Below, one piece after another: positions 37,883-64,000 of a stretch of DNA of 64,000 bases (its first letter is position 1; each line of letters opens with the position of its first letter). The notes under the pieces were generated by a model. It saw only the letters and a list, made by a program, of their open reading frames with translations, made no database searches and was not told the origin of the DNA. Where the stretch lies: positions 224,001 to 288,000 of the forward strand of contig CH464491.1 in assembly GCA_000002445.1 (NCBI GenBank). The letters are read 5' to 3'. The DNA comes from Trypanosoma brucei. Its lineage: Eukaryota. A program made the translations under genes and the position numbers.

Positions 37883-39362
37883 TGTGGAAGGATGCCACCA
37901 GTGACGCAAAATTAAAAAAAAATACGCACATGTAAATATGGATGTATTCGTGTGCATGTATACGCGTACATAACTGCGTTTCCAAGTGAGTGGAAAAATG
38001 AAAGAGGAAACACAACAGGAAGTATGTGTATAGTATTTTATTTTTGTACATGTACCGATCCCCTCGTAAGGGCAGAGTTTGTGCGTATCGAAGGGGTGTG
38101 GTGAGGAGGTGGTGGACGATCGCAAAGTGAGGACGAAGGGTGAAGCGTATGGGTGCTCTACTGTTTTCCCTTTCTTTTTTCTTGTTTTGGACAACTGAAA
38201 GGATTTTCTATGTCGTTGTTATTGCTACACTGTAAGACATGGGAGGTTCTTTGTACTTACTGAAAACGGTAATTTAATTTTAGCGAATTCATTTTTTCTT
38301 TGTTCTTTTTTTTTACCTTTTGGATAATATCGTTGGCATCAATATCATCATCATCATTATTAATATTATTAGTTTTGCTGGTTACCGCCTTGATATGTCA
38401 CCTTAAAGGTAAATACCATTAAATGTGGTGTGCCCACACGGAAGGCACTGAGCCCTTCACGGGATGAATGCCAATTGGGAGTAGTTACTCAGATATGTTT
38501 GATGCTTAACCGTATTGCACGCGAAATGGCGAGAGGAATGGTTTCATTCGGTACAGTTGCCCCGAAAACTGTCTGGTGTGTGGGCGCGTCACGTCTCGCA
38601 ATTTCCCCCCTCGTTCCCACTTTTTTTCCATTTCAATGATTGTTTTGTGTGTTTTTTTTTTTTACAACCCATTTACTGCCGGCCATATGAAGCTGTGGGT
38701 TTAATATGATTCCGAGGCAGTTGGAGTGGGAGTTGGGGAAGTGGGACACATTTTCTCTATACTTCGGCTTTCAGCCGTCTGCGTTCGCCAGACTTTCTTG
38801 TGTTTTGAGTGTGCTGAATCTGAATCCGAAAGTGTTATTTTGTCGATTTGTACTATCGATTAGCGATACCAATGCTAGCCGTATTATTATTATTATTACT
38901 TTTTCCATCCTTTCTTTGTTCTCCTTTTTTTGTTTGTAAAATTTCTCCTCTTGTTGTTGCTGGCGCTCTTGCGTTATCCCATTAAAAGTGTGAAGATTGT
39001 GCTTACGTCCTATCGTCCATTTGTTTCGCATCAGCAGTAAGGACGAAGGAAGGAAAAAAATAAGTAAAGCAGAAGATATATTTACAAGTAACTCTGGAGG
39101 AACAAGAGAAAGCGTGAGAGAGAACGACAACGCCGCTTGCACGCGGAGGAAAAAAAGGGCGAAAAGTTATTCATATTTGAGAAGAAGCTAGAAAGCAAAG
39201 GAAGACACAATACACGTTTTCTTTTAACCCCTTTTCACCTCTACCACCTTCTCTCACCAGCTCAGCCAACACGCGCCTCCGACTCTACTCTACTTTATCC
39301 TGGTCTGCCCTGTGGACAGGTAGCGTAACGACTGATTCTTGTGATATAACGTCTTGCACATT

Positions 39363-45595: not shown

Positions 45596-46591
45596 ATGGG
45601 AAAAGGTGCGCGCACTAAACGTAGCGCCGGGCCTGTAGTGAAGAGGCAGCGGCATGAGGTTAGGCACCGTGCGACTGAGGTTGACCCGGCGTTAGTGGAA
45701 CGATATCGTAGTACGCGACAACCGGTAAAAAAGAGTCAGTTGTTTGAGGAACTGAGGGAACAAACAAAAGATGCGAAACGGTTCCGACGTGAGGCGCGTG
45801 AGAGGGAGCGGAAGGTTCTCAAGGAGAACGCCCCTGCGAAGCCGATTCCCAAAACAAAGGAGCGTATGCGGCTCCCCGACGTCACGTTTGTGGAGGATAA
45901 AAATGATGCTGAGATTTTGCGTGATGAGGCGGATGATGAATTTGCGTCGTACTTTAAGGAAGGCCGCAAGCCGAAGATTCTCATTACAACCGGTGAGCAC
46001 CCGTGTTTTCGAACCAAATTGTTTGTCAAGGAGGCGCTCTGGTTGTTTCCTAATTCCATCTACCGACCACGTAAGAAATACAACTTGAAGGAGATTACTC
46101 AGTTTTGTATCAACCGTGAATTCACGGATTTGATAGTTGTGACTGATCGTCTGAAAGAACCTTACAATCTAATCATTTCACACTTACCTGAGGGACCCAC
46201 GGCAATGTTTCGGGTATCAAACTTCATGACACACGCGCAGTTGAAAGATCCAGCACCGCGAACGGAGCACTATCCCGAACTTATTTTCAAGAACTTTGAC
46301 ACGCGATTGGGTCGTCGTATCAACCGCCTCTTAGAATGTTTGTTCCCGGCAACGCGTGACTATGAGGGTCGTGCTGTGGCGACCTTTCACAATCAGCGTG
46401 ATTACATATTTATGCGTACCCACCGTTACATCTTTGACAGTTTAGATGCCGTGCGCATTCAGGAAATGGGGCCACGCTTTACTCTTAGGCTTCTGTCGTT
46501 GCAGTCCGGAACATTTGACACACAGTTCGGGGAGTACGAGTGGTTCCGCAAGAAGGAACATGATGACGACAAGCTGGAGTGGTACCTCTAA
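45596..46591 (+). CDS. Brix-domain ribosome biogenesis protein (RPF1/IMP4-like), 331 aa.
   Basis: It has a basic N-terminus, then ...KPKILITTGEHPCFRTKLFVKEALWLFPNSIYRPRKKYNLKEITQFCINREFTDLIVVTDRLKEPYNLIISHLPEGPTAMFRVSNF...GPRFTLRLLSLQSGTFDT..GEYEW. These are the conserved Brix landmarks, including the C-terminal sigma-70-like motif. Confidence 0.75.
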   Translation: MGKGARTKRSAGPVVKRQRHEVRHRATEVDPALVERYRSTRQPVKKSQLFEELREQTKDAKRFRREARERERKVLKENAPAKPIPKTKERMRLPDVTFVEDKNDAEILRDEADDEFASYFKEGRKPKILITTGEHPCFRTKLFVKEALWLFPNSIYRPRKKYNLKEITQFCINREFTDLIVVTDRLKEPYNLIISHLPEGPTAMFRVSNFMTHAQLKDPAPRTEHYPELIFKNFDTRLGRRINRLLECLFPATRDYEGRAVATFHNQRDYIFMRTHRYIFDSLDAVRIQEMGPRFTLRLLSLQSGTFDTQFGEYEWFRKKEHDDDKLEWYL

Positions 46592-47122: not shown

Positions 47123-48586
47123 ATGTATTCTTCAGACAGGGTTCGGACCGTCATGGAGCAGCTCGCTTCTATGAATCCATACACGAACGCAAAAAGTTTA
47201 CCCGAAGTCCCGCGTCCCGACGAGTTATCGATTCCACGGAAGCTTTCTTCACGCCTTCAGATTCCGTATGTTCAGAATATACTCAACTCACTTTCGTACA
47301 ATTTTCTTCCTAATACATTTTTTTGTCTTGAGAAACACCGGTCGCTGCAGAGCATTCTTTTTACCTCGAAAGAAATCCTCGCAGAGGCGCTTCCGATCCG
47401 TTGCCTTGAAGCTACATTTGTGGGACTCTATCTCACACAGGATCTGAAGGATGTTGACCGCATTCCCCTTTCGTTTAAATCGCGTGCGAAGGGGCGTGCA
47501 TATCATCATATTGTTCTCGTAATACGCTGCAATTCCATGTACGGGGCGGTGGGACTTAGTCGGAAGTCCACACTTATGGACAAACCCCTAATTTACAATG
47601 GTCTTTACCAACTAATTATGGAGTACAAAAAGCAGTACGAGGCAATAGGACACGAACTGGTGGACTTCAAGTTGGGATTATGTGTCAATCATAAGCGAGA
47701 TTCGCGGAAAGCCCCGTGCTGGCGCTACATAGCGGTTAAACTTGGTAGGTCGACCGCTCCTTCGACTTCCACATCTCCACGCCCACAGGAACAGCAAGAA
47801 GAGGTAAGTACGAATGAGGTCGATGTATCACTTATATCTAATAGTGGGGGTTGTAGCTGTGGGGACGGCATTGAAAAAATGTTGAAATGTTATTCAGATT
47901 TGCTTTGTAGGCTCTCAGAAGAATATGACAACCTTTTGACATCCTATTCACGTGGAGCATCGAACAATAATCAACAGGTGTGCTTGAAAGACCTACACGA
48001 CATGGATAATAGCTCCGCAAAGGTGGAGAATAGGAGAAGGTTGGAGGAGCTACGTCAGGGTCGCTCGCCGTGCGGTTCTGTTGGAACGCGGTGCAAGAAA
48101 CGCAGCGCGTCCCGGTCGGTTTCGAAGAAGCGCGCGGTATCCCAAAATGATGTACCGTCGACAGATAGGTCAAGGGTGGTTAGGCTTTCTTCCGCAGTTG
48201 CTACCAAGAAAACTGCTCGAAGAGAAAAGGCTGCTGCTGCAAACTATCGACAGCCCGCAGCGTCTGACCTTAAACAACCCCGTGAGTTTTCGTCTGCGTC
48301 AGGCGAGAAAGGTGATGGCCAGTTACCGCACGTTTCTAGGGGTACTAATGGCAATATATCCCCAGAGCGAGCGTGCCGGGCGGCAGAGGAAGGGTGCGCT
48401 GCGAACCCTGGGGAAGAGGTTACGGGAGAGCGTCAGAGTGTGCGTAATCCACTCTTATCTCTGGCACTCCCACTGTTGGATTCGAAAGGTGGTGAGTTAG
48501 GCCTGACAACTTGCCAGGCAACTGACCGCTGGATGTTGCCAAATTCAGCAAAGGGTGCCAATATTAACGATGTGGGCCGATCGTAG
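47123..48586 (+). CDS. VASH: Vasohibin-like tubulin tyrosine carboxypeptidase (transglutaminase-like Cys protease fold) with a long low-complexity C-terminal tail, 487 aa.
   Basis: ...EALPIRCLEATFVGLYLTQ...RIPLSFKS...YHHIVLVIRCNSMYGAVGLSRKSTLMDKPL...GLCVNH aligns with the vasohibin core (EALPIKCLEAVILGIYLTN...RFPISFKT...FRHIVLGV...YGALGMSRREDLMYKP...KLGQSVSHD). The catalytic Cys (PIRCLEA) and His (YHHIVL) are conserved. Confidence 0.7.
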   Translation: MYSSDRVRTVMEQLASMNPYTNAKSLPEVPRPDELSIPRKLSSRLQIPYVQNILNSLSYNFLPNTFFCLEKHRSLQSILFTSKEILAEALPIRCLEATFVGLYLTQDLKDVDRIPLSFKSRAKGRAYHHIVLVIRCNSMYGAVGLSRKSTLMDKPLIYNGLYQLIMEYKKQYEAIGHELVDFKLGLCVNHKRDSRKAPCWRYIAVKLGRSTAPSTSTSPRPQEQQEEVSTNEVDVSLISNSGGCSCGDGIEKMLKCYSDLLCRLSEEYDNLLTSYSRGASNNNQQVCLKDLHDMDNSSAKVENRRRLEELRQGRSPCGSVGTRCKKRSASRSVSKKRAVSQNDVPSTDRSRVVRLSSAVATKKTARREKAAAANYRQPAASDLKQPREFSSASGEKGDGQLPHVSRGTNGNISPERACRAAEEGCAANPGEEVTGERQSVRNPLLSLALPLLDSKGGELGLTTCQATDRWMLPNSAKGANINDVGRS

Positions 48587-49679
48587 TTTTGTGTTTGTGA
48601 TCACTCCCAGCGGCAAAGGGTGTGTGTGTGTGTGTGCGAGGTGTGCGTGTAGAATGTCCTCTTAATTCTCTTCATTTCATCGTTTACACTTCTTTGCTGC
48701 TTTGTATCTTTAATTATGATAGGCGACGGCAGAGGATTAACGGCCTGATGGGTGTTGTGGCGCCAGTTCTTAGAGGAGGGGTTGTTTACATGGTCGTTTT
48801 TTTTTTTTTTGGACGTTTGGCGGAGAAACTCCCAATCAGAGGAATGTATGGATGGACGCGGCCTGTATTTTATGTGATGCGGTCACCGGATTACCTTCTT
48901 GCATCTTCTTCGTATTTTTCTGAAGGTCTTAGGGGACCGCCGAGTCGTTTGTACCTTTTTATTTTTATATGTTAACTCCGTGTTATGTCAAATCTTTACC
49001 TTTCGAACACTTCGTCATTCTTTTTTTCTTTTTTTCACTGATAACCCAATTATCATTCTGCTTAACGGCGCTCCTCGGCTCCACTCCTCGTTTTGCTTTC
49101 GTCCACCTCTCCTTTCGCTTCCTTTTTAGTTTGTTTGAGTTCACCGTCAGGAGCTTACCGCTGTGGTGGAGGGGCGGAACTGCAGTGGAAGAAACTTGAT
49201 AGCACTGTCCTATTAGTGAATACTAAATTATTGTTTTTACCTCGTATTCGAAAAAAAAAGGTATGAGGAACGTGGGTTACCTTGGAGACATGTGAGGACG
49301 CAATGAAGTGAAACACGATCCCAAGAAATGATGAATAAGGGATGAATAAAAACGCCTGGAGTAAGGGGTTTATCACCTGCTGCTGTTTCACTCTCTTCAA
49401 GCGGTAGGGTTTTTTTTCTTTTTACTTTTACCTCTTGTTGTTCCTTCTTCAATGTGCCGTCCAACTGATTCCACACCACGTGCATGGGACTTTGCATTTA
49501 TCATGCATCTCCTTTTAAATTTCCCTCACGTTGTGGTTCTCTTTCCCTTCTTCTTTGTTGTGTTGTGTTGTGCCCATCTTCCTTTGTTACTAAGTTGATC
49601 AGCGTCTTCTTTCTTTTTGTGTTTTTGTGTGTGTGTTTAGTTGTTACCGCAACTGCCTGGTTGTACAAGACACCGGCGA

Positions 49680-51734
49680 ATGACAACGCATTGGGTTCGT
49701 GACTATGGGGCAATAGTGACTAGTGCGGCAACGTTCTTTCTATGTGCTTCGTATCAGAGAGTACTTCTGCGTCATGGCGATGCTTTAATCCCCAGCGAAA
49801 AGAAGGAAAAAGGAGGAGCGACATCGTCGTTCTTTCGTGAGTTCATGCAGGTTGCCAGAATAGCACTACCCACTGTTTGGTGCAAGGAAGCTTTGGGTAC
49901 TTTTGTTTTTGTCTTACTCTTCTTTGTTTTGGCGGTGATTCGGGCACTAACGTCCGAAGCAAACGGCAGGGTGTTGAAGTCGATGACGGAGGGGACGGGT
50001 GGAACCCGTCTGCGCAACTTCACGCACACCTTACTTCTTCGTACGGCGCTTCACTTGTTGTCGTCTGTTTGTAGCAGTTGTGTGGAGCACCTTCGAACAT
50101 GGTTGATAGGTTGCTACCGTGTGAGACTTAGTAAGCACTTTCAAGAGCGGTATTACAGCCAGCTTGTGTTTTACAGAGCCGCTGTGATAGATAAGCGGCT
50201 GGAGGCAGTGGACTCGGTAGTCACGACGTATTGCGCTGAATTTGCCGAACATTTTACGGAACTCCCCTATTACTTCGTGCTTCCGGCACTCGGTTCTGCT
50301 ACATCTATGGTCGCCCTCATACGACGGGTTGGTGCCGGTGCATCTGCGGCTGCGTGTGGTTTAGTTTTGGCGTCTGTCCTTCTGATGAAGAAGTTTTCAC
50401 CGCCTTTTGGGAAAATATACGCGTCTCTGCTGTCAAAGGAGGATGCTTACAGAAGAATGCTTTCAAATAGTTTGAGTAATGTAGAAAACATTGCTTTGCA
50501 CAGGGGTGGTGAACACACTAGGAAGAAGCTTGACACCCAACTCGGCGTGCTGAAGGGTTATCTCGATCATTTTGCGCTCTCCCGTGGACACTTTAACCTC
50601 CTTGAACTGTCTTTTGCAACGACGCTGCGCAATATTGCTAGCATTATTGTCTTTGGTGATGCACTGCGAAAAGAGAACAAATCCACGAGTGATATTTATG
50701 TGGAGTTGCTGTACTTGAGGGATCTCAGTAAAAGTGTGACAGACGTTGTGTCAAACTTCCGTGAGATCTCTCACTTATCAACCTATACGCTAAAACTTGC
50801 GGAGTTTGACAGGACACTGAAGGATATTGAGGGGGACACATGCGATACGTTTCCGTGTGTGGCGAGCATACCAGATGTTGGAACGGTTGTTCCAACAGTC
50901 GTTTCTCCTAGCGTACCCATTGCCGGGGCCTTGAGCTTTCCACTTTTTACCTTTACCAATGTGAAGCTGAAAACCCCAACTGGTCACGTGCTTTTCGAGA
51001 ACTTGAATCTTACCATCCAAAACGATCAGGATTGGGTGATTACAGGAAACAATGGGTCAGGTAAGACGTCACTTCTCCGTCTCATATCTGGTCTCTGGCG
51101 GGCCTGCGAAGGAGACATTACAATGAGCAGCTGTGTGAAGTTGTTGTTCGCCCCGCAGGAAAGTTACGTGGTGCCCCATTGCACGCTCGTGGAGCAGATT
51201 CTTTACCCCAAGATTATAACATCTCTGAATGAGGGGGACATTGCATGTATAAAGGAAGCCATTAGTCTCGCCGGTGCCGAGTCTGTTGTTGAGGTGCTCG
51301 GCGGCTTTGAGAGTCCGGCAGTGGGCTGCGATCTTTCAAACGTTGATGAAACCTACGATTGGTCTTCCCTGAGCGGTGGGCAGAAACAACGTGTTAATAT
51401 GGCCCGTGTGTTCTACCAAGTCTTGCAAGCGGACCGGAGTCGGGAAATCCCGGTGGTGTTGTTGGATGAGGCTACATCTATGATGGATGACACGGAAGAG
51501 AAAGTGATGCTTAACTTACGGAAACTCAATGCGCGCATGATATCTGTCACGCATCGTGAACAAGTTGTTAAGCACCACACGCACGTGTTGAGAGCCCTTC
51601 CTGGTGGTCGTTGGATGACAACCAAAGTAACCCAATATGTTGGCAGTGACGATGTTGTAACGCAAGGAATCTCTTCGGTTGGTGGGTCCTCCAATGCCGA
51701 AGGTGTGGGAGTTGATTTGCACAGGGGTTTCTAA
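49680..51734 (+). CDS. ABC half-transporter, subfamily D (peroxisomal/glycosomal ALDP-type; GAT-like), about 684 aa. The first ATG is at 49680. The track start 49641 is TTG.
   Basis: The N-terminal transmembrane domain carries the ABCD-typical EAA-like region. The Walker A is GNNGSGKTSLLRLISGLW, the signature is LSGGQKQRVNMARVFY, and the Walker B is VVLLDEATSMMD. The TMD-then-NBD order and length are as in ABCD proteins. Confidence 0.8.
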   Translation: MTTHWVRDYGAIVTSAATFFLCASYQRVLLRHGDALIPSEKKEKGGATSSFFREFMQVARIALPTVWCKEALGTFVFVLLFFVLAVIRALTSEANGRVLKSMTEGTGGTRLRNFTHTLLLRTALHLLSSVCSSCVEHLRTWLIGCYRVRLSKHFQERYYSQLVFYRAAVIDKRLEAVDSVVTTYCAEFAEHFTELPYYFVLPALGSATSMVALIRRVGAGASAAACGLVLASVLLMKKFSPPFGKIYASLLSKEDAYRRMLSNSLSNVENIALHRGGEHTRKKLDTQLGVLKGYLDHFALSRGHFNLLELSFATTLRNIASIIVFGDALRKENKSTSDIYVELLYLRDLSKSVTDVVSNFREISHLSTYTLKLAEFDRTLKDIEGDTCDTFPCVASIPDVGTVVPTVVSPSVPIAGALSFPLFTFTNVKLKTPTGHVLFENLNLTIQNDQDWVITGNNGSGKTSLLRLISGLWRACEGDITMSSCVKLLFAPQESYVVPHCTLVEQILYPKIITSLNEGDIACIKEAISLAGAESVVEVLGGFESPAVGCDLSNVDETYDWSSLSGGQKQRVNMARVFYQVLQADRSREIPVVLLDEATSMMDDTEEKVMLNLRKLNARMISVTHREQVVKHHTHVLRALPGGRWMTTKVTQYVGSDDVVTQGISSVGGSSNAEGVGVDLHRGF

Positions 51735-53177: not shown

Positions 53178-54815
53178 ATGACGAACAGAGAAAACACGTG
53201 GGTTCACGTTGGGGAATCGCCACTTTTTCAGTTTCGCGTCAAGAATATTACCACCATCTCTTTCATACGTCTTCAATGTAGTCCACGTGACGATGTCCTT
53301 ACCCCCTTGAAAGACAGTTGCATTACTCTCTGGGCAAAATATTCCCCTTATGTGAGGACTGCGGATGGTGTGCTCTGTGATCTTCCCCCGTATGTTGTTG
53401 CATCTTTCAGATTCGACGAGACGGGCGAGGCGGTTTCGTCGGCACTTGCGTGGGTGTTACAAGAGGGATCGGCTGTTACGATTTGTGTCGCAACTGACAC
53501 GGGTGTCCCGGAGGTTCTGAGAGACGATGCGGCGGAGAGGTCTGCTGCTGCGCCTTGGGCTGCGTCGTATGGGTTAGGATGTAACATCAGTGTTTCACTT
53601 TTTGGGACGGAAAAACTGAGGGACTACTACCTGTCATCTTGGAGGCCCCTGTTGGTCTACCGGTGGTTCGAGCTGAAGGATTGTGTTCGTGAGGCAACTA
53701 TTCTACCATCGCGGTACAGGGGTCCGCTAACACCAAACAGTACTTTAAAGTTTCGTAAACGCCGTTTTCTACACGGTGGTGTGCGGGAGGCTAAATGCAT
53801 TTCTTCATGTGGTAATTACGTGCTTTGGGCAGATGGAACCATGGGACCCGCTGGCGAGGTGGTTCCGTACTGGAGGCGATTTGCGCCAGCGAGGGTGGAC
53901 AAGCGTGTTCGAGTGCGCGCCTTTCCTCATCGTTTTGCTGACATTGTTGGTGAGGTGCCCTTCGGTTGCATGGTCGAAGCCATTGGCAAGAAGGTTGACC
54001 CCTCGACACGTGAGGAATACGTGTTGCTTGTCTTGGGGGTACTCCCAAACGCGGCGTCATTGGCTGAGGCGTATGAGTTAACATACATTGAAACTGGCAA
54101 GTGGATCTGGGGGTGGTCAAAAATTGCGACGAGGAACGGCATGGTCTTGTTGGTAGAGGTTAGCGACACGTGCGGTGCCACCGCCGAAGGCCAAATGTGG
54201 GTTGAACACTTGCCGGAACCCGCGTTTTACACATCGGCTAGTGACGACCGCCGCGTCCGTATCCGTCGGGGACCGTCGTTACATGACGACGTCGTTGGGC
54301 ATCTGGAGCGCAACGAGGTAAAACTAGCTGTCGCTTTGTGGCACCCCGTCGATGGAGCTATCTGCGGGGCGATCCCTTCGGAGGACGTAAATAACACAAA
54401 TAGTGATCATGGAGCGGGACCACGGGGTGAGAAAGTACCTCAGAGTGTTCTGCACCACTTTGTGGAGTGGGAAAGTGGGGGATTTTCGCTTTTGCGGAAC
54501 AACGACCGTGTCTACCTCGTCGCCGTAGAACTAAGAAAAGAACCGCGCCACTTTCCTGTTTGTCCTCGACCGGAGCCACAGTCTCCGGAAATCATATCCA
54601 TTTCAAGAAAGCGGGCGCGAGCGGAGTCCCCCGTTAGTGAAGCAAGCGAAAAAGCAAAAGCAGATGCACCCAGCTCGCAGTTATGGAGCCCCTCAATGCT
54701 ACCAGAAGCGGTTACTATGGGGCTGAAGTCCGGACGTGTGCGATTGGAGGATCTGCCAACCATTGAATCTGCCGGAGGATCATGTGGGTCATTATCTTCC
54801 TTTGAGGGTGACTAA
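53178..54815 (+). CDS. Hypothetical protein (545 aa).
   Basis: There is an ATG at 53178 after a polyY tract (53040-53120). It is a continuous ORF in the polycistron orientation. No family was recognised. Confidence 0.55.
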   Translation: MTNRENTWVHVGESPLFQFRVKNITTISFIRLQCSPRDDVLTPLKDSCITLWAKYSPYVRTADGVLCDLPPYVVASFRFDETGEAVSSALAWVLQEGSAVTICVATDTGVPEVLRDDAAERSAAAPWAASYGLGCNISVSLFGTEKLRDYYLSSWRPLLVYRWFELKDCVREATILPSRYRGPLTPNSTLKFRKRRFLHGGVREAKCISSCGNYVLWADGTMGPAGEVVPYWRRFAPARVDKRVRVRAFPHRFADIVGEVPFGCMVEAIGKKVDPSTREEYVLLVLGVLPNAASLAEAYELTYIETGKWIWGWSKIATRNGMVLLVEVSDTCGATAEGQMWVEHLPEPAFYTSASDDRRVRIRRGPSLHDDVVGHLERNEVKLAVALWHPVDGAICGAIPSEDVNNTNSDHGAGPRGEKVPQSVLHHFVEWESGGFSLLRNNDRVYLVAVELRKEPRHFPVCPRPEPQSPEIISISRKRARAESPVSEASEKAKADAPSSQLWSPSMLPEAVTMGLKSGRVRLEDLPTIESAGGSCGSLSSFEGD

Positions 54816-55197: not shown

Positions 55198-58100
55198 ATG
55201 GCGTGTCAAGAGGTAAATAGTGAAGTTCCTGACAGCGATGTAGTTTTCCATGACACCATTTTTATGAGAAACAACAAACACGTCTCGGAGCAATGGATTC
55301 GTATTGGCGAATTGTACCCCAATGGTGCGAAGGAATCATTGCTCCCGGAGACGTTTGCACGCGAACAGTTCGGACAAGGAAGTCACTATGAGTGCTTCAT
55401 GCTTTCTGCCCTCGCCACTTTAGTAAAATTCCCCGACATCATTCGGAACTGCTTCGTGTCGAGGAATGTGCGGCGTGACGGGAGGTACACTTTTCAGTTC
55501 TTTCGTGACAAGGAATGGGTGAAGGTTGAAATTGATGACTCTGTTATGCTTGAGGATGATGAAGTTTTGTTCATCCGATCACCCACTAGTCATTGGTGGC
55601 CGCTACTGTTTGAGAAGGCTTATGCGAAATTCTACACCAGCTACGACAATTTGGAGGGTTGTACCTTACAGGAGGCGTACCATGACTTAACTGGCAACCC
55701 CGTGCTCAACATCCCCATGGACGCGAGGCTTGCCAAGGCTGCAGGTGTGGATGTGACTGGAGGTCAGTATTGGCTTGACCTCGCACAGAAGCTGCAATCC
55801 GGCCAGTTTGTTGGTTCGCTGCTGACGAGGGAAACGGACCTTGAGTCGATGGGTTTGCAGAGTGAGCAACAATACGGGATACTAGAGATTTTTTCGCTAA
55901 CTGGGACATCATCTGTAAGCGACATTGTGATTCACCTATACAACCCATTCGAGGACGAGGAATTCACGTACAAAGGCCCGCTGAACAGTAAGGACACGGA
56001 GTGGACCCCCAAACTCCGTGAAAAGTATAACGTGGATGATACGCACTCCATATTTCTTCCGCTACACGTTGCCCTGAAGATCGTAAATTCGGTGCAACTT
56101 TGCTACATATCCCCTATTGATGGTGACGCGACGTATTTTGATGATGAGTGGAAGGGTGAAACTGCGGGAGGGAACCCCACGAGTGTAACATGGCGCAAGA
56201 ACCCCCTATACTGCGTCAGGAACGCTGGGATCAACCCCGTGGAACTGGTTGTCGTGATTAAGCAGAAGGATCAACGTCATCTTTGGACATCAGAAGATGA
56301 TGAACTGATGTACAAAAGGTGTGGCATTGTTGTTGTTCAGAGTACCACAGTCACACAAATACCGACATATTTTGTAACAGGGAACAATCACAAAGCAATA
56401 CACAAGAGTTTGTTCCTAAACTCTCGTGAAGTGTCCAGTTTCGTTCGGATACCACCTAATTCCTTGTGCTACCTTGTACCTTCTTGCATGAAGAAGGGAG
56501 CGGAGAGTGCATTTACGCTCGCACTGTACCGGATGAAGCACCAAAATTATACGGAGTTCAATGTTAGTCGACTTGCTCTGCCGAAATTGCTGTGGCACAA
56601 TCCTATCCAAGAGAAACTCCAACTTCAAATGTTCACAAAGGATAGAAGGGATTTTTACGTCGATATACCCACTGACATTCACATTTTGATGCATCAAGAA
56701 AAACCGTTTGTAAGTGAGAAGACCGGTGGTGATGCTATGGTTCAGGATTACGTTGGTGTCTACCTTTATGATGACACGGACCGTAAGATTGGAGGTGTGC
56801 ACGCTGCGACGAATTTCAGGGAAACAAGTGTCTTGCATCGCCTTCCTCGTAGTGGTCGTTATGCTATTTCAATTACGTGTCCCCGGGCAAGTGGTGAAGT
56901 ACCCATTGCTCTCACAATTGTTGGTTCTCCTGATGCTAATGTTCGTATTGTTGAGGCTCCTGATGATGCCTCCATGTTTGATGATGAGGATGATATTGCA
57001 GAGGGTGATGAGGATGCTACTGTTTCTAATCCCATTGACTACATTCCTGTTGCTGGTGGAGGGCAGGTGTTCACTGAGGTACCCGATAGTACGGTCCCAT
57101 TTGAAGATAAACGTTTCATGGTTGATAATAAGATTATGACGAATGAACCGTGGATCCACATTGGTGACCTTTATCCTGAGGGAAAGACGCGCTCACTTTT
57201 GCCGGAGCGTCTGAGTCGTGAGCAGTTTGAGCAGGGTGAACACTTCGAGTGCTGTTGTCTGACCGCTTTTGCAGCGCTGGTGGAGCACCACCCCAACGTA
57301 ATTCGTGACGCGTTTGTGACGAAGGCTGTACGACGTGACGGACGGTACACGTTCCGGTTCCACCGCTACGGTCAGTGGGTGAAGGTGGAGATTGATGATC
57401 GTATTCCCCTTCTTGGTGGGAAAACTTTATTCTGTCGATCATCTGATGGTTATTGGTGGCCACTACTACTAGAGAAGGCGTATGCTAAGTTCTACACACT
57501 ATACCAAAATATTGAGGGATGTACGCTGCGGGAACTGTTTTACGACCTAACAGGGCTTCCTGTGCTTAGCATTCCGATGGAGTTGAAACTCGCGAAGGCT
57601 GTACTGTGTGATGTTGATGATGTGAGTTTTTGGGTTGAGCTCAGTGAGGGTCTGAAGGATTGTGCGTGTGCTGCCGTTGCACGCCCCGGTTTCGATGACA
57701 CCCTTGGTTTGTCCAATGGGCAAGAGTACGCTGTCCTTGATGTGGTATCGTTAACGGATGGTGAGGCCTCTTCCATATCTGATCTTGTTGTAAAACTTCA
57801 TAATCCGTTTCTGGAGACTGAGTACAAAGGCCCTATGAATGCAAGCGATGCTGCGTGGTCGTCTGAGCTGCGTACCCGTCTATGTCCGGAGCGACGGGAT
57901 ACTATCTACATTCCCGTGGAAGTTTTCTGCAATGCATTTCTCACTGTGGAGAAAGTTATGGTGCGTGGTCTTATTGTTCCCGGGTGGCAATTCAACAGTG
58001 AATGGGGTGAGGGCACGAACGGTGGCAATCCAACACTTGTGACGTGGCGTGAGAACCCCATTTACGTTGTGCAGAACACTGCGGATACCCCGTTACAGAT

Positions 58101-61100
58101 TATTGCAATGATTGGGCAACCTGATCAGCGTCGCGTGCTACACCTTCTCCCCGAGCAAGAGGTAAACTACGTTCAATGTGGGTTGTCGCTTGCCAAGAGT
58201 ATTAAGGGTGAATCGATCCCGACATACTTGCTGACACCCAATAGTCATGTTTTGATTCATAAGGGCCGTTTCTTTTCTTACCGTGAAGTAGCTGATGTTA
58301 TTGTTGTTCCGGGGAATAGCCTCACTTTTCTCGTTCCAAGCGCGATGTTTCGTGACAAAACGAAGTTTCTTCTCTCGTACTGGTACTCTAGTGCGAACGA
58401 CAGGAACAGTGTTACAATTGAGCGTCTTAATTTGGGTGTTGCGCGGCATCTTCCAGCCATTGCCCATCTCACTGTCAAAGAGAGGGTGAGGGAGCAAGTG
58501 GATTTTATTGTCGATGTTCCCACTGACGTTCATATCCTTCTTCGTCAAGAAAAACCCTGCCACGGTGACAGTGTTTCAAATGCCTTGACAGATGATTTTC
58601 TTGCCATGTATTTGTATAATTCTGAAGATGATCAACTCAGTGGTGTTGTGACCGCGACCAACTACAGGGAGATGGGAATAGTTCATCACCTCTCCGAAGG
58701 GGGGAGATATGTAATTTACGTTGTTTGCCCTCGTGCTGAGGGTGAGGTTCCTTTGAGAATAGAAATTGTCGCTATGCAGTCGGCCCAGGTTCGCACAGTG
58801 GAAGCATTACCCTTGTGCAAATCAATCTTGCAGGTGGAAAAAGAGCTAAAGCTGAGTACTGGGTCCTTGCCATACTCACCACTCCTTATAAGCGAAGGGG
58901 ATCTCAAAAATTTCTCGGGGCGACTATCGGACAACTCTATGCGGTTGGAGAGTTCCAGTGACCCTGACTTATCTTTCCTTGGAGCCGAGGTGGAAGGAAT
59001 TCCCACCCTGGATCTCACTCTGATGAGCGACTCTTCATTTTCTGAGATGGCACGTGAGCGCATGCAATTAAAGCGGGATCCCATTGCTAATGCGAGTCGT
59101 TTGGCTGAGGTTGAAGATAGTATGGTGGCACGTGCGAATGCTATTGCCAAGGAAATGCATTTGAGAGAGCGGCGATATCTGAACCCTGAGCCTGAGGGTG
59201 TCCCCCTTGAGTTGCTTCCTTTAAACGAGGACGAAGTTGTGAGTGAGAAGGAGGACCGCCTCCGTGCGCTGAATCGTAAGGAGCAGAAGGACGAGAAACT
59301 GTTACGGAGTCTTGAGGACGTGATAGCGGACCGTGTACACGAGATCGCGAGGGAGCTGAAGGTGAGTGAACGTGATCTGTTCCTTGATCCCACTCCAGGA
59401 GGTTTCCCTGTAGCGCAGCTTCCGCTGGACGAAGACGATGTGTTTCATTCACTCGAAGTGGAGCGACTGCAACTGCGACTGCGTCAGGATTCCCTTGCTA
59501 GCAAAGAAAGAATTGCTGAACTGGAAAACATGATGAATTGTAGGACTACGGAGCTCATCGACAAAATGAAAGAAGAGATTAGGAAGTTTCTTGACCCCAC
59601 CCCACTAGGAATACCACTTGAAGAACTAAAACTGGACGAACACGACAATTATGTTGCAAAAGAGATAAGCCTAATTGGAATGATAAGAAAAGGGAAAAAA
59701 GAATCACAGGAAGCAATTTCAATTCGGGAACAGTTACTTCAAATAGAATACGCTGTTGCCAAGGAACACTTAAACAACTTTAGGATACAGTACCTCGGAG
59801 ACGACATTGAGGGTCGCCAACCGAACGAATTAAACTTAGAAGAAGAAGAAACTTATATGCAGATGGAGAGAAAATTGATTGAATACTACAACAGTAATCA
59901 ACGTAACAGCGAAGAAGCGCAGAAAATAAGAGTAAATCTACTTCACAAAGCTACAAAAGCATCAAAGCATTTAAATCGATCCGAGAGAAAAAACTACATT
60001 AAGAGAGACAGACTCGAGATTTCAATATCAAACATTCCGCTTGATGACAACGAACAGTTCACAACATTAGAAGCGGAACGAATAAGAAAAAAAAGAAATA
60101 AAAAAAATTCAGAGGTTGAACAAATAGAAATGGAACTCAACAATATAGCACAACAGCTAGCTAAACTGAAAGCATCCGATAGCCGCAGCTTCCTTGATCC
60201 TATGCCAGAAGGAGTGCCGTTGAGTGAGCTTGAATTGGACAAGGATGAGAAGTTCAGCACCATGGAAGAGGAGCGTCGTAAGCTTATTGCTGAGGATCGT
60301 GAAGATAATGCAACACGCATTGCTGAATTAGAAGCAGCAATGAACGAGTATTCACATGAGCTTGCTAAACTGAAAGCATCCGATAGCCGCAGCTTCCTTG
60401 ATCCTATGCCAGAAGGAGTGCCGTTGAGTGAGCTTGAATTGGATAAGGATGAGAAGTTCAGCACCATGGAAGAGGAGCGTCGTAAGCTTATTGCTGAGGA
60501 TCGTGAAGGTAATGCTGCGCGCATTGCTGAATTAGAAGCAGCAATGAACGAGCATTCACATGAGCTTGCTAAACTGAAAGCATCCGATAGCCGCAGCTTC
60601 CTTGATCCTATGCCAGAAGGAGTGCCGTTGAGTGAGCTTGAATTGGATAAGGATGAGAAGTTCAGCACCATGGAAGAGGAGCGTCGTAAGCTTATTGCTG
60701 AGGATCGTGAAGATAATGCAACACGCATTGCTGAATTAGAAGCAGCAATGAACGAGTATTCACATGAGCTTGCTAAACTGAAAGCATCCGATAGCCGCAG
60801 CTTCCTTGATCCTATGCCAGAAGGAGTGCCGTTGAGTGAGCTTGAATTGGATAAGGATGAGAAGTTCAGCACCATGGAAGAGGAGCGTCGTAAGCTTATT
60901 GCTGAGGATCGTGAAGGTAATGCTGCACGCATTGCTGAACTAGAAGCTGCAATGAACGAGCATTCACATGAGCTTGCTAAACTGAAAGCATCCGATAGCC
61001 GCAGCTTCCTTGATCCTATGCCAGAAGGAGTGCCGTTGAGTGAGCTAGGATTGGATAAGGATGAGAAGTTCAGCACCATGGAAGAGGAGCGTCGTAAGCT

Positions 61101-64000
61101 TATTGCTGAGGATCGTGAAGGTAATGCAACACGCATTGCTGAATTAGAAGCAGCAATGAACGAGCATTCACATAAGCTTGCTAAACTGAAAGCATCCGAT
61201 AGCCGCAGCTTCCTTGATCCTATGCCAGAAGGAGTGCCGTTGAGTGAGCTTGAATTGGATAAGGATGAGAAGTTCAGCACCATGGAAGAGGAGCGTCGTA
61301 AGCTTATTGCTGAGGATCGTGAAGGTAATGCTGCACGCATTGCTGAACTAGAAGCTGCAATGAACGAGCATTCACATGAGCTTGCTAAACTGAAAGCATC
61401 CGATAGCCGCAGCTTCCTTGATCCTATGCCAGAAGGAGTGCCACTAAGTGAGCTTGAATTGGATAAGGATGAGAAGTTCAGCACCATGGAAGAGGAGCGT
61501 CGTAAGCTTATTGCTGAGGATCGTGAAGGTAATGCTGCACGCATTGCTGAATTAGAAGCAGCAATGAACGAGCATTCACATGAGCTTGCTAAACTGAAAG
61601 CATCCGATAGCCGCAGCTTCCTTGATCCTATGCCAGAAGGAGTGCCGTTGAGTGAGCTTGAATTGGACAAGGATGAGAAGTTCAGCACCATGGAAGAGGA
61701 GCGTCGTAAGCTTATTGCTGAGGATCGTGAAGGTAATGCTGCACGCATTGCTGAATTAGAAGCAGCAATGAACGAGCATTCACATGAGCTTGCTAAACTG
61801 AAAGCATCCGATAGCCGCAGCTTCCTTGATCCTATGCCAGAAGGAGTGCCGTTGAGTGAGCTTGAATTGGATAAGGATGAGAAGTTCAGCACCATGGAAG
61901 AGGAGCGTCGTAAGCTTATTGCTGAGGATCGTGAAGGTAATGCTGCACGCGTTGCTGAACTAGAAGCTGCAATGAACGAGCATTCACATGAGCTTGCTAA
62001 ACTGAAAGCATCCGATAGCCGCAGCTTCCTTGATCCTATGCCAGAAGGAGTGCCGTTGAGTGAGCTAGGATTGGATAAGGATGAGAAGTTCAGCACCATG
62101 GAAGAGGAGCGTCGTAAGCTTATTGCTGAGGATCGTGAAGGTAATGCTGCACGCATTGCTGAACTAGAAGCAGCAATGAACGAGCATTCACATGAGCTTG
62201 CTAAACTGAAAGCATCCGATAGCCGCAGCTTCCTTGATCCTATGCCAGAAGGAGTGCCGTTGAGTGAGCTTGAATTGGATAAGGATGAGAAGTTCAGCAC
62301 CATGGAAGAGGAGCGTCGTAAGCTCATTGCTGAGGATCGTGAAGGTAATGCTGCACGCATTGCTAGACTTGAGGAGAGGATGAACGAACTTTCCCGTGAA
62401 CTCGCAAGAATGAAGTTGAAGGATCGCAGCTTCCTTGATCCTATGCCAGAAGGAGTGCCACTAAGTGAGCTTGAATTGGATAAGGATGAGAAGTTCAGCA
62501 CCATGGAAGAGGAGCGTCGTAAGCTCATTGCTGAGGATCGTGAAGGTAATGCAACACGCATTGCTGAATTAGAAGCAGCTATGAACGAGCATTCACATGA
62601 GCTTGCTAAACTGAAAGCATCCGATAGCCGCAGCTTCCTTGATCCTATGCCAGAAGGAGTGCCGTTGAGTGAGCTTGAATTGGATAAGGATGAGAAGTTC
62701 AGCACCATGGAAGAGGAGCGTCGTAAGCTCATTGCTGAGGATCGTGAAGGTAATGCAACACGCATTGCTGAATTAGAAGCAGCAATGAGCGAGCATTCAC
62801 ATGAGCTTGCTAAACTGAAAGCATCCGATAGCCGCAGCTTCCTTGATCCTATGCCAGAAGGAGTGCCACTAAGTGAGCTTGAATTGGATAAGGATGAGAA
62901 GTTCAGCACCATGGAAGAGGAGCGTCGTAAGCTTATTGCTGAGGATCGTGAAGGTAATGCTGCACGCATTGCTGAACTAGAAGCAGCTATGAACGAGCAT
63001 TCACATGAGCTTGCTAAACTGAAAGCATCCGATAGCCGCAGCTTCCTTGATCCTATGCCAGAAGGAGTGCCGCTAAGTGAGCTTGAATTGGATAAGGATG
63101 AGAAGTTCAGCACCATGGAAGAGGAGCGTCGTAAGCTTATTGCCGAGGATCGTGAAGGTAATGCTGCACGCATTGCTGAACTAGAAGCAGCGATGAACGA
63201 GCATTCACATGAGCTTGCTAAACTGAAAGCATCCGATAGCCGCAGCTTCCTTGATCCTATGCCAGAAGGAGTGCCGTTGAGTGAGCTTGAATTGGACAAG
63301 GATGAGAAGTTCAGCACCATGGAAGAGGAGCGTCGTAAGCTTATTGCTGAGGATCGTGAAGGTAATGCTGCACGCATTGCTGAACTAGAAGCAGCAATGA
63401 ACGAGCATTCACATGAGCTTGCTAAACTGAAAGCATCCGATAGCCGCAGCTTCCTTGATCCTATGCCAGAAGGAGTGCCGTTGAGTGAGCTTGAATTGGA
63501 TAAGGATGAGAAGTTCAGCACCATGGAAGAGGAGCGTCGTAAGCTTATTGCTGAGGATCGTGAAGGTAATGCTGCACGCATTGCTGAACTAGAAGCAGCA
63601 ATGAACGAGCATTCACATGAGCTTGCTAAACTGAAAGCATCCGATAGCCGCAGCTTCCTTGATCCTATGCCAGAAGGAGTGCCGTTGAGTGAGCTAGGAT
63701 TGGATAAGGATGAGAAGTTCAGCACCATGGAAGAGGAGCGTCGTAAGCTTATTGCTGAGGATCGTGAAGGTAATGCAGCACGCATTGCTGAACTAGAAGC
63801 AGCAATGAACGAGCATTCACATGAGCTTGCTAAACTGAAAGCATCCGATAGCCGCAGCTTCCTTGATCCTATGCCAGAAGGAGTGCCGTTGAGTGAGCTT
63901 GAATTGGATAAGGATGAGAAGTTCAGCACCATGGAAGAGGAGCGTCGTAAGCTTATTGCTGAGGATCGTGAAGGTAATGCTGCACGCATTGCTGAATTAG
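55198..64000 (+). CDS. ClpGM6: Giant calpain-like protein with two tandem calpain-type cysteine-protease-like domains followed by a 68-aa (204-bp) tandem repeat array (ClpGM6 / GM6-antigen type). It is 5'-partial only in the sense that the ORF runs off the window end. More than 2,930 codons are open.
   Basis: It is not in the supplied ORF track (no stop in the window). There is an ATG at 55198 after an A-rich leader and polyY tract (54880-54925). I translated frame 1 from 55198 by hand and found no stop to 64000. The two homologous about 640-aa units begin ...WIRIGELYPNGAKESLLPE...QGSHYECFMLSAL...RDGRYTFQFF...WWPLLFEKAYAKFYTSY... and ...WIHIGDLYPEGKTRSLLPE...QGEHFECCCLTAF...RDGRYTFRFH...WWPLLLEKAYAKFYTLY.... 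These are the calpain domain II landmarks (QGxxGDCW -> QGxHxECx; WVxLLEKAYAK). Then come about 19 near-identical 68-aa repeats (...ELAKLKASDSRSFLDPMPEGVPLSELELDKDEKFSTMEEERRKLIAEDREGNAARIAELEAAMNEHSH...). Confidence 0.85.
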   Translation, partial: MACQEVNSEVPDSDVVFHDTIFMRNNKHVSEQWIRIGELYPNGAKESLLPETFAREQFGQGSHYECFMLSALATLVKFPDIIRNCFVSRNVRRDGRYTFQFFRDKEWVKVEIDDSVMLEDDEVLFIRSPTSHWWPLLFEKAYAKFYTSYDNLEGCTLQEAYHDLTGNPVLNIPMDARLAKAAGVDVTGGQYWLDLAQKLQSGQFVGSLLTRETDLESMGLQSEQQYGILEIFSLTGTSSVSDIVIHLYNPFEDEEFTYKGPLNSKDTEWTPKLREKYNVDDTHSIFLPLHVALKIVNSVQLCYISPIDGDATYFDDEWKGETAGGNPTSVTWRKNPLYCVRNAGINPVELVVVIKQKDQRHLWTSEDDELMYKRCGIVVVQSTTVTQIPTYFVTGNNHKAIHKSLFLNSREVSSFVRIPPNSLCYLVPSCMKKGAESAFTLALYRMKHQNYTEFNVSRLALPKLLWHNPIQEKLQLQMFTKDRRDFYVDIPTDIHILMHQEKPFVSEKTGGDAMVQDYVGVYLYDDTDRKIGGVHAATNFRETSVLHRLPRSGRYAISITCPRASGEVPIALTIVGSPDANVRIVEAPDDASMFDDEDDIAEGDEDATVSNPIDYIPVAGGGQVFTEVPDSTVPFEDKRFMVDNKIMTNEPWIHIGDLYPEGKTRSLLPERLSREQFEQGEHFECCCLTAFAALVEHHPNVIRDAFVTKAVRRDGRYTFRFHRYGQWVKVEIDDRIPLLGGKTLFCRSSDGYWWPLLLEKAYAKFYTLYQNIEGCTLRELFYDLTGLPVLSIPMELKLAKAVLCDVDDVSFWVELSEGLKDCACAAVARPGFDDTLGLSNGQEYAVLDVVSLTDGEASSISDLVVKLHNPFLETEYKGPMNASDAAWSSELRTRLCPERRDTIYIPVEVFCNAFLTVEKVMVRGLIVPGWQFNSEWGEGTNGGNPTLVTWRENPIYVVQNTADTPLQIIAMIGQPDQRRVLHLLPEQEVNYVQCGLSLAKSIKGESIPTYLLTPNSHVLIHKGRFFSYREVADVIVVPGNSLTFLVPSAMFRDKTKFLLSYWYSSANDRNSVTIERLNLGVARHLPAIAHLTVKERVREQVDFIVDVPTDVHILLRQEKPCHGDSVSNALTDDFLAMYLYNSEDDQLSGVVTATNYREMGIVHHLSEGGRYVIYVVCPRAEGEVPLRIEIVAMQSAQVRTVEALPLCKSILQVEKELKLSTGSLPYSPLLISEGDLKNFSGRLSDNSMRLESSSDPDLSFLGAEVEGIPTLDLTLMSDSSFSEMARERMQLKRDPIANASRLAEVEDSMVARANAIAKEMHLRERRYLNPEPEGVPLELLPLNEDEVVSEKEDRLRALNRKEQKDEKLLRSLEDVIADRVHEIARELKVSERDLFLDPTPGGFPVAQLPLDEDDVFHSLEVERLQLRLRQDSLASKERIAELENMMNCRTTELIDKMKEEIRKFLDPTPLGIPLEELKLDEHDNYVAKEISLIGMIRKGKKESQEAISIREQLLQIEYAVAKEHLNNFRIQYLGDDIEGRQPNELNLEEEETYMQMERKLIEYYNSNQRNSEEAQKIRVNLLHKATKASKHLNRSERKNYIKRDRLEISISNIPLDDNEQFTTLEAERIRKKRNKKNSEVEQIEMELNNIAQQLAKLKASDSRSFLDPMPEGVPLSELELDKDEKFSTMEEERRKLIAEDREDNATRIAELEAAMNEYSHELAKLKASDSRSFLDPMPEGVPLSELELDKDEKFSTMEEERRKLIAEDREGNAARIAELEAAMNEHSHELAKLKASDSRSFLDPMPEGVPLSELELDKDEKFSTMEEERRKLIAEDREDNATRIAELEAAMNEYSHELAKLKASDSRSFLDPMPEGVPLSELELDKDEKFSTMEEERRKLIAEDREGNAARIAELEAAMNEHSHELAKLKASDSRSFLDPMPEGVPLSELGLDKDEKFSTMEEERRKLIAEDREGNATRIAELEAAMNEHSHKLAKLKASDSRSFLDPMPEGVPLSELELDKDEKFSTMEEERRKLIAEDREGNAARIAELEAAMNEHSHELAKLKASDSRSFLDPMPEGVPLSELELDKDEKFSTMEEERRKLIAEDREGNAARIAELEAAMNEHSHELAKLKASDSRSFLDPMPEGVPLSELELDKDEKFSTMEEERRKLIAEDREGNAARIAELEAAMNEHSHELAKLKASDSRSFLDPMPEGVPLSELELDKDEKFSTMEEERRKLIAEDREGNAARVAELEAAMNEHSHELAKLKASDSRSFLDPMPEGVPLSELGLDKDEKFSTMEEERRKLIAEDREGNAARIAELEAAMNEHSHELAKLKASDSRSFLDPMPEGVPLSELELDKDEKFSTMEEERRKLIAEDREGNAARIARLEERMNELSRELARMKLKDRSFLDPMPEGVPLSELELDKDEKFSTMEEERRKLIAEDREGNATRIAELEAAMNEHSHELAKLKASDSRSFLDPMPEGVPLSELELDKDEKFSTMEEERRKLIAEDREGNATRIAELEAAMSEHSHELAKLKASDSRSFLDPMPEGVPLSELELDKDEKFSTMEEERRKLIAEDREGNAARIAELEAAMNEHSHELAKLKASDSRSFLDPMPEGVPLSELELDKDEKFSTMEEERRKLIAEDREGNAARIAELEAAMNEHSHELAKLKASDSRSFLDPMPEGVPLSELELDKDEKFSTMEEERRKLIAEDREGNAARIAELEAAMNEHSHELAKLKASDSRSFLDPMPEGVPLSELELDKDEKFSTMEEERRKLIAEDREGNAARIAELEAAMNEHSHELAKLKASDSRSFLDPMPEGVPLSELGLDKDEKFSTMEEERRKLIAEDREGNAARIAELEAAMNEHSHELAKLKASDSRSFLDPMPEGVPLSELELDKDEKFSTMEEERRKLIAEDREGNAARIAEL
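60150..64000 (+). repeat. A 204-bp (68-codon) tandem repeat array, about 19 copies in the window and continuing past the window end. It is in-frame coding sequence of the ClpGM6-like gene.
   Basis: The string cttgctaaactgaaagcatccgatagccgcagc recurs at 60361, 60565, 60769 ... 63823 with an exact spacing of 204 bp. One unit (about 62341-62541) is 201 bp and diverged. There are a few recurrent SNVs between units. Confidence 0.95.

What the first reader, a model, noticed from the sequence alone, without database searches (positions are those of the whole stretch)
55198..58900. Both calpain modules look catalytically dead
In classical calpains the catalytic Cys sits in QGxLGDCW and the His in a ...GHAYS... 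motif. Module 1 has QGSHYECFMLSAL (Cys retained, flanking residues altered) but EQQYGILEIFSL where GHAYS should be. Module 2 has QGEHFECCCLTAF and GQEYAVLDVVSL. The His of the triad therefore appears to be lost in both, which predicts a scaffold or cytoskeletal role rather than a protease. This is consistent with the known non-proteolytic behaviour of kinetoplastid calpain-like proteins.
Basis: partly seen in the sequence, partly recalled or inferred. Interest (0 to 1): 0.5.

Follow-up and report, generated by a model that had tools for sequence, protein, structure and literature searches.

The report
Dead calpain domains of trypanosome ClpGM6

Summary
An ORF starts at 55198 (+) and stays open to the window end. 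It encodes two tandem calpain-like modules, 43% identical to each other, followed by 68-aa repeats.

A family profile aligned to human m-calpain (E=5.5e-63) and a 137-domain alignment agree on the catalytic columns:
- Cys105 aligns with C66 and C685 (kept).
- His262 aligns with Q224 and Q842 (lost).
- Asn286 aligns with N249 and N869 (kept).

The His column is His in all 90 domains with an intact triad. It is Gln in 27 of the 29 N-terminal module copies of this protein's close relatives and Arg in the other two. Most side-chain ligands of the two calcium sites in the protease core are also replaced.

An AlphaFold model of residues 1-640 (pLDDT 82) matches m-calpain protease core plus domain III.

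The gene is T. brucei brucei TREU927 ClpGM6 (Tb927.11.1090). The repeats contain both peptides used to raise the published anti-ClpGM6 antibody, and five neighbouring genes match TREU927 proteins exactly.

Hayes et al. 2014 already state that ClpGM6 lacks the catalytic triad, sits in the flagellum attachment zone and controls cell shape. The T. cruzi orthologue was described the same way in 2011.

Verdict: real, correctly interpreted, already known, low interest. My additions are minor: the exact residues, the settled alignment register, the loss of the calcium sites, and a third beta-sandwich in each module.

The parts
55198..64000 (+). 5' part of the ClpGM6 gene (Tb927.11.1090): 2934 codons with no stop, running off the window
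   Evidence: Translation. The repeats contain KASDSRSFLDPMPE and ERRKLIAEDREGN, the antibody peptides of Hayes et al. 2014. Five upstream genes match T. b. brucei TREU927 proteins exactly.
55258..56103 (+). Module 1 calpain protease-core (CysPc) domain, aa 21-302
   Evidence: PF00648 E=1.9e-36. AF2 model pLDDT about 90 over this stretch. Foldseek TM 0.7-0.76, normalised to target length, against calpain protease cores.
55393..55395 (+). C66 (TGC): retained catalytic-position Cys of module 1
   Evidence: Aligns with Cys105 of m-calpain.
55867..55869 (+). Q224 (CAA): Gln in place of the catalytic His in module 1
   Evidence: Aligns with His262. The column is His in 90/90 intact-triad domains and Gln in 27 ClpGM6-type N-terminal modules.
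55942..55944 (+). N249 (AAC): retained catalytic-position Asn of module 1. The Trp that follows in NPW is Phe (F251).
   Evidence: N249 is invariant in alignment A1.
56140..56529 (+). Module 1 calpain domain III (C2-like), aa 315-444
   Evidence: PF01067 E=5.5e-08, 33.6 bits against a cut-off of 21. Aligned with m-calpain domain III.
56605..56952 (+). Module 1 third beta-sandwich, aa about 470-585, with no Pfam family
56953..57117 (+). Acidic linker between modules, predicted disordered from aa 596
   Evidence: pLDDT below 50 for aa 596-640.
57190..57951 (+). Module 2 calpain protease-core domain, aa 665-918
   Evidence: PF00648 E=4.1e-33. 43% identical to module 1 over 567 aa.
57250..57252 (+). 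C685 (TGC): retained catalytic-position Cys of module 2
57721..57723 (+). Q842 (CAA): Gln in place of the catalytic His in module 2
57802..57804 (+). N869 (AAT): retained catalytic-position Asn of module 2, followed by P870 and F871
57994..58800 (+). Module 2 domain III-like region plus third beta-sandwich, aa about 933-1201
   Evidence: Collinear with module 1 domains (BLASTP E=3e-163). Pfam does not call these on its own.
58975..60154 (+). Degenerate 68-aa-type repeats
   Evidence: PF24610 (DUF7623) hits and FL[DG][PA] motif spacing.
60155..64000 (+). Near-perfect 204-bp (68-aa) GM6 repeat array, 18.9 copies inside the window
   Evidence: Tandem Repeats Finder, 96% matches.

Best explanation
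[quoted passage not shown] The head is an ancient tandem duplication of one three-domain module: calpain protease core, C2-like domain III and a second beta-sandwich. Both copies keep the calpain fold, the oxyanion Gln, the nucleophile-position Cys and the Asn. Both have Gln where the general-base His should be, and both have lost most acidic ligands of the two calcium sites that switch classical calpains on. They are therefore pseudoproteases. They most likely act as folded, non-catalytic docking or anchoring domains at the end of a long 68-aa-repeat spacer. Shown here: gene identity, fold, loss of His and loss of the calcium ligands. Published: localisation, RNAi phenotype and mutual dependence with FLAM3. 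Inferred: no proteolysis, and a docking role for the modules.
For: Identity: both antibody peptides occur in the repeats, neighbouring genes match TREU927 exactly, and ClpGM6 = Tb927.11.1090 has N-terminal calpain-like domains before the 68-aa repeats. Domains: Pfam. Fold: AF2 pLDDT 81.8, pTM 0.80; best PDB match m-calpain 3bow_A, E=3e-23 over about 495 columns. Triad: profile alignment to m-calpain, E=5.5e-63; in the 137-domain alignment 90 domains are C-H-N and all 27 C-Q-N domains are at least 42% identical to module 1. Conservation: orthologues in T. cruzi, T. melophagium and L. donovani (both modules), T. congolense (module 2) and T. vivax and Angomonas (module 1) keep the Cys and Asn and lack His at the catalytic column, at 48-71% overall identity, so the protein is under purifying selection. 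Calcium ligands (list from PMC4057710): D96 aligns with Q57/Q676, E175 with H132/Y752, D299 with S264/A882, D321 with T282/R900 and E323 with S284/T902. No EF-hand family is detected. Literature: ClpGM6 lacks the triad, sits in the attachment zone, and its RNAi gives epimastigote-like cells; ClpGM6 and FLAM3 levels depend on each other; the T. cruzi orthologue H49/calpain has a partially conserved triad and no activity in vitro, reported as data not shown.
Against: No enzymatic test of ClpGM6 was found in the papers read. The nucleophile Cys, the oxyanion Gln and the Asn are strictly conserved in both modules, which is more than a purely structural role obviously requires. A review notes that triad substitutions do not always abolish calpain-type activity. 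The tools return no model coordinates, so the geometry of the C66/Q224/N249 site could not be inspected. The docking role of the modules is inference only.
Confidence: 0.9

Rival explanations
1. The modules keep a non-canonical catalytic or chemical activity. The conserved Cys would use another base, for example the clade-specific His three residues upstream (H63/H682 in QGxH[YF]EC) or H132, or these residues would form a metal site.
For: C66/C685, Q60/Q679 and N249/N869 are invariant in all 29 N-terminal module copies. H63 is conserved in 25/29 where 68/90 intact calpains have Leu, and H132 in 27/29 where 55/90 have Glu. A review states that substitutions do not always inactivate.
Against: His is the universal general base in this fold: 90/90 intact-triad domains in the alignment have it. 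The Gly next to the Cys is replaced by a bulky Tyr/Phe, and the Trp of NPW by Phe. The T. cruzi orthologue showed no activity, as data not shown. No T. brucei calpain has shown proteolysis.
Confidence: 0.06
2. The missing His is an alignment artefact: the true catalytic His lies in a shifted register or nearby.
For: MAFFT with one classical calpain gave a different register, H262 with E230/D848. T. rangeli module 1 (EQHYG) and L. donovani module 2 (GRHYA) carry a His one residue after the canonical column.
Against: The shifted register has no His either. With 137 domains, the invariant Tyr (135/137) anchors the strand and His262 falls on Q224/Q842. HMMER pairwise and profile alignments agree. 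Hairpin arithmetic fits this register: in m-calpain H262 + N286 puts the turn at 274, and model strands 225-233 and 243-248 put N249 opposite Q224/Q225. The T. brucei sequence has no His in 222-233 or 840-851.
Confidence: 0.02
3. The region is a decaying pseudogene or an assembly artefact rather than a functional protein domain.
For: The gene lies in a repeat-collapsed region and was annotated as two fragments.
Against: The reading frame is uninterrupted for 2934 codons. There is 54-71% protein identity to orthologues out to Leishmania. The AF2 fold is confident. The protein has been detected by antibody and tagging, and its RNAi gives a phenotype.
Confidence: 0.01

Closest known systems
T. 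brucei ClpGM6 (Tb927.11.1090; formerly Tb11.57.0008 + Tb11.47.0036), Hayes et al. 2014, J Cell Biol (PMC4121973)
   Same: It is this gene. It has the same 68-aa GM6 repeats including both antibody peptides, the same chromosome 11 neighbourhood, and N-terminal calpain-like domains described as lacking the catalytic triad.
   Different: Nothing substantive. In the text I could read, the paper does not name the substituting residues. Here they are C/Q/N in both N-terminal modules and G/C/N in the C-terminal module of the T. b. gambiense fragment.
T. cruzi H49/calpain (Galetovic et al. 2011, PMC3214072)
   Same: Orthologue at 65% identity over the 1270-aa head (P0001). It has 68-aa repeats, sits in the flagellum attachment zone and has a partially conserved triad. 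Both its modules are also C-Q-N.
   Different: The repeat sequence has diverged (the paper reports less than 60% identity) and there are several gene copies in T. cruzi.
Classical calpains (human/rat calpain-1 and -2; PDB 1KFU, 3BOW, 1KXR)
   Same: Same protease-core and domain III fold (Foldseek E=3e-23). The oxyanion Gln, the Cys, the Asn-Pro and the LLEKAYAK helix are conserved.
   Different: His is replaced by Gln. The Trp after the Cys and the Trp of NPW are replaced by Phe or Cys. Calcium-site residues D96, E175, D299, D321 and E323 are replaced. There is no penta-EF-hand domain. Sequence identity is about 20%.
Calpain-7 / PalB-type calpains (CysPc followed by tandem C2-like domains; PDB 2QFE distal C2-like domain)
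T. brucei CAP5.5 / CAP5.5V cytoskeletal calpain-like proteins
   Same: Kinetoplastid calpain-like proteins lacking the C-H-N triad, with structural and microtubule-associated roles (as cited in PMC3214072 and PMC7912814).
   Different: They are described as cytoskeleton-associated proteins rather than 68-aa-repeat attachment-zone proteins. From my own knowledge, not tested here: they are a different paralogue group, single-module, acylated at the N-terminus and located in the subpellicular corset.

Membership tests
Calpain superfamily (MEROPS C2 / CysPc fold) | Significant match to the calpain protease-core profile (PF00648) | tested here: met
   Module 1: 126.1 bits. Module 2: 115.2 bits. Cut-off 23.8.
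Calpain superfamily (MEROPS C2 / CysPc fold) | Three-dimensional fold of protease core plus C2-like domain III | tested here: met
   AF2 model pLDDT 81.8. Foldseek top 40 hits are all calpains; 3bow_A E=3e-23; TM 0.7-0.76 (normalised to target length) against protease cores. Only module 1 was modelled; module 2 follows by 43% identity.
Catalytically competent calpain protease | Intact Cys-His-Asn triad | tested here: not met
   C66/Q224/N249 and C685/Q842/N869. The His column is His in 90/90 intact-triad homologues.
Catalytically competent calpain protease | Acidic calcium ligands of the two protease-core sites (CAPN2 D96, E175; E292, D299, D321, E323) | tested here: not met
   Q57, H132, S264, T282, S284 in module 1; Q676, Y752, A882, R900, T902 in module 2. 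Only the E292 equivalent is kept: E875 in module 2, and E255 in module 1 in the HMMER register only (the deep alignment places T257 there).
Classical calpain (large subunit with penta-EF-hand domain IV) | C-terminal penta-EF-hand domain | tested here: not met
   No EF-hand family in the Pfam scans of aa 1-1801. After domain III there is a beta-sandwich instead.
Catalytically competent calpain protease | Measured proteolytic activity | not testable with these tools
   This needs a biochemical assay. The literature gives only 'data not shown' for the T. cruzi orthologue.
ClpGM6 / kinetoplastid group IV calpain-like proteins (calpain domains flanking tandem repeats) | Central array of near-identical 68-aa GM6 repeats | tested here: met
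   204-bp period, 18.9 copies, 96% matches. Contains the published antibody peptides.
ClpGM6 / kinetoplastid group IV calpain-like proteins (calpain domains flanking tandem repeats) | Calpain-like domains N-terminal to the repeats, at the T. brucei chromosome 11 locus | tested here: met
   Neighbouring proteins are identical to EAN79082-EAN79089 of TREU927. The T. brucei N-terminal fragment itself was not returned by the protein search, so the locus identity rests on the neighbours and the repeats.
ClpGM6 / kinetoplastid group IV calpain-like proteins (calpain domains flanking tandem repeats) | [quoted passage not shown] | not testable with these tools
   Published for ClpGM6.

The most novel reading that the evidence does not exclude
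The pseudo-active site is not a relic. It is a conserved functional pocket, marked in most N-terminal module copies across trypanosomatids by Q..QGxH[YF]EC, HWW, Q-x-Y and NP[FY]. It would bind a specific peptide partner such as FLAM3 or a tubulin tail, or a metal ion, using the retained Cys together with the clade-specific His residues. The two dead proteases would then serve as the ligand-recognition heads that couple ClpGM6 dosage to the length of the flagellum attachment zone.
Probability: 0.12. Interest if true: 0.45.

Novelty: already known. Interest (0 to 1): 0.12.

Why it matters
It matters little as a discovery. Loss of the triad in kinetoplastid calpain-like proteins is credited to Ersfeld et al. 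2005 by the papers I read, and it was stated for this protein in 2014. The value here is confirmation with an explicit residue map (C-Q-N twice, calcium ligands gone), which could guide point-mutant or reversion experiments on a protein that sets trypanosome cell shape. There is also a method lesson: aligning against a single distant outgroup misplaced the His strand by six residues.

Tried and rejected
(1) MAFFT L-INS-i with only human CAPN2 as outgroup aligned His262 with E230/D848. I rejected this after the 137-domain alignment and the HMMER profiles agreed on Q224/Q842.

(2) Ersfeld et al. 2005, the primary classification paper, is not in the library, so its per-gene triad table could not be checked.

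(3) The search for homologous proteins did not return the T. brucei N-terminal fragment itself; the best hit was T. cruzi at 65%. Species and locus were established instead from exact matches of five neighbouring genes and from the antibody peptides.

(5) I considered the 1331-aa ORF on the minus strand (59994-63989). I dismissed it as a stop-free antisense frame of the 204-bp repeat.

(6) Pfam did not call domain III in module 2. I accepted that domain by its collinear 43% identity with module 1.
Full report
**What is there.** An ORF starts at ATG 55198 on the + strand and stays open for 2934 codons to the end of the window. Every ORF of at least 250 aa upstream is on the + strand except one, which lies inside the nucleoporin ORF, as expected for a kinetoplastid polycistronic unit.

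Pfam finds a calpain protease core in aa 21-302 (PF00648, E=1.9e-36) and a calpain domain III in aa 315-444 (PF01067, E=5.5e-08). A second calpain protease core lies at aa 665-918 (E=4.1e-33). From about aa 1260 there are repeats of family DUF7623.

The two modules are 43% identical over 567 aa, so this is an internal tandem duplication of a whole three-domain unit. From nt 60155 the DNA is a 204-bp repeat, 18.9 copies at 96% identity.

**Identity.** The repeats contain KASDSRSFLDPMPE and ERRKLIAEDREGN. These are the two peptides Hayes et al. 2014 used to raise the anti-ClpGM6 antibody (PMC4121973).

Five upstream proteins match T. brucei brucei TREU927 entries EAN79082-EAN79089 exactly. The ribokinase matches only TREU927. 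[quoted passage not shown] The window therefore holds the 5' part of ClpGM6 on chromosome 11.

**The catalytic residues.** Pairwise phmmer against PDB calpains aligns QGSHYEC and QGEHFEC with QGALGDC. It aligns EQQYG and GQEYA with GHAYS, and YNPF and HNPF with RNPW.

A profile built from 18 orthologous sequences (A1) hits human m-calpain at E=5.5e-63 and gives the same columns.

A MAFFT alignment with a single classical calpain shifted the His strand by six residues, putting H262 on E230/D848. I resolved this with an exhaustive HMMER search of 1.84 billion representative proteins and an alignment of 137 protease-core domains. In that alignment:
- The invariant Tyr (135/137) anchors the strand.
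- The column of Q224 is His in 92 domains, Gln in 27 and Cys in 12.
- Human CAPN2 GHAYSV lies on EQQYGI.

Triad types in the alignment:

| Type (Cys/His/Asn columns) | Count | Which domains |
|---|---|---|
| C-H-N | 90 | intact-triad homologues |
| C-Q-N | 27 | all at least 42% identical to module 1, i.e. N-terminal modules of ClpGM6-type proteins |
| C-R-N | 2 | module 2 of L. donovani P0004 and of P0040 |
| G/S/T-C-N | 12 | include the C-terminal modules of the giant ClpGM6-type proteins and of the T. b. gambiense fragment P0007 |

The final map is C66/Q224/N249 for module 1 and C685/Q842/N869 for module 2. The oxyanion Gln is kept (Q60/Q679). The Trp after the Cys is Phe or Cys, and the Trp of NPW is Phe.

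**Calcium switch.** I took the ligand list from PMC4057710. The side-chain ligands of the two protease-core calcium sites are mostly replaced:

| CAPN2 ligand | Module 1 | Module 2 |
|---|---|---|
| D96 | Q57 | Q676 |
| E175 | H132 | Y752 |
| D299 | S264 | A882 |
| D321 | T282 | R900 |
| E323 | S284 | T902 |

Only the E292 equivalent survives: E875 in module 2, and E255 in module 1 in the HMMER register only, because the deep alignment places T257 there. No EF-hand domain is detected. The classical calcium activation mechanism is therefore absent as well.

**Structure.** AlphaFold2 on aa 1-640 with alignment A1 gave pLDDT 81.8 and pTM 0.80. The top 40 Foldseek PDB hits are all calpains. The best is m-calpain 3bow_A at E=3e-23 over about 495 columns. 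Isolated protease cores match at TM 0.7-0.76, normalised to target length.

The model has a hairpin with strands 225-233 and 243-248. This places N249 opposite Q224/Q225, as His262 lies opposite Asn286 in m-calpain, which supports the chosen register.

The tools give no coordinates, so the site geometry itself could not be measured.

**Conservation.** Orthologues from T. cruzi, T. melophagium, T. congolense, T. vivax, T. rangeli, Leishmania, Angomonas and Strigomonas share 48-75% identity with the window protein. Wherever the relevant segment was present in the aligned sequences, it keeps the Cys and the Asn and lacks His at the catalytic column.

Both modules carry Gln. The simplest reading is that His was lost before the duplication, and both events predate the Trypanosoma/Leishmania split.

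Several residues specific to these modules surround the site: H63, Y/F64, Q57, H132 and W133.

**Mechanism.** The best-supported reading is that these are pseudoprotease domains serving as folded, non-catalytic heads of a giant structural protein.

Published work shows three things:
- The amount of ClpGM6 correlates with the length of that zone, and depletion converts trypomastigotes into viable epimastigote-like cells.
- ClpGM6 and FLAM3 levels depend on each other.

[quoted passage not shown] A comparable role for the beta-sandwiches here is plausible, but it is inference.

**Known or new.** This is already known. Hayes et al. 2014 say ClpGM6 'lacks the catalytic triad', citing Ersfeld et al. 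2005. The T. cruzi orthologue was reported with a 'partially conserved' triad and no activity. A 2021 review treats trypanosomatid calpains in general as probably non-proteolytic.

What I add is small:
- The explicit residue identities.
- The settled alignment register.
- The loss of the calcium ligands.
- The three-domain layout of each module.
- The observation that C-Q-N occurs only in this protein's N-terminal modules among the 137 domains sampled.

Interest is low.

Noticed in passing
window 47123-48586 (+): A vasohibin homologue (PF14822, E=8.6e-53; exact match to T. brucei 'Vasohibin, putative'). This is a tubulin-detyrosinase-type cysteine protease family member, 6.6 kb upstream of the dead-calpain cytoskeletal gene. 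Its own catalytic residues were not checked.
   Followed up: partly
window 59994-63989 (-): A 1331-aa ORF on the opposite strand lies entirely inside the 204-bp GM6 repeat array. It is a stop-free antisense frame of the repeat, not evidence of a gene.
   Followed up: partly
[not shown]
   Followed up: yes
P0007 (T. b. gambiense fragment) aa 579-908; also P0039, P0040, P0044 C-terminal modules: The C-terminal calpain module of ClpGM6-type proteins, which lies outside this window, is more degenerate. It has Gly/Ser/Thr at the Cys column, Cys at the His column, and Asn kept. No module of the protein has a full triad.
   Followed up: partly
window 55366-55392, 55591-55599; module 2 57223-57249: Residues specific to the ClpGM6 N-terminal modules are conserved next to the pseudo-active site. 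H63/H682 replace Leu, Y64/F683 replace Gly, Q57/Q676 replace the calcium-site Asp, and H132-W133 replace Glu-Leu. Why a His three residues before the retained Cys is conserved is unexplained.
   Followed up: partly
P0012 (T. rangeli) module 1; P0004 (L. donovani) module 2: These two orthologous modules carry a His one residue after the canonical His column (EQHYG, GRHYA). L. donovani module 2 has Arg at the column itself. Whether this shifted His matters is unknown.
   Followed up: no
window 58975-60154 (+): Between module 2 and the perfect repeats lie degenerate copies of the 68-aa unit. One stretch also matches the cGMP-kinase coiled-coil family PF16808 (E=9.9e-10).
   Followed up: no
window 25751-30412, 31700-33706, 34822-35937, 36688-37689, 45596-46591, 49641-51734 (+): Upstream genes of the same polycistron are a Nup98-96-type nucleoporin, ATG9, a DnaJ protein, ribokinase, a Brix-domain ribosome biogenesis factor and a half-size ABC transporter with the type-2 ABC membrane domain (PF06472). 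The ORFs at 39354-41297, 43168-44931 and 53178-54815 have no Pfam family.
   Followed up: partly
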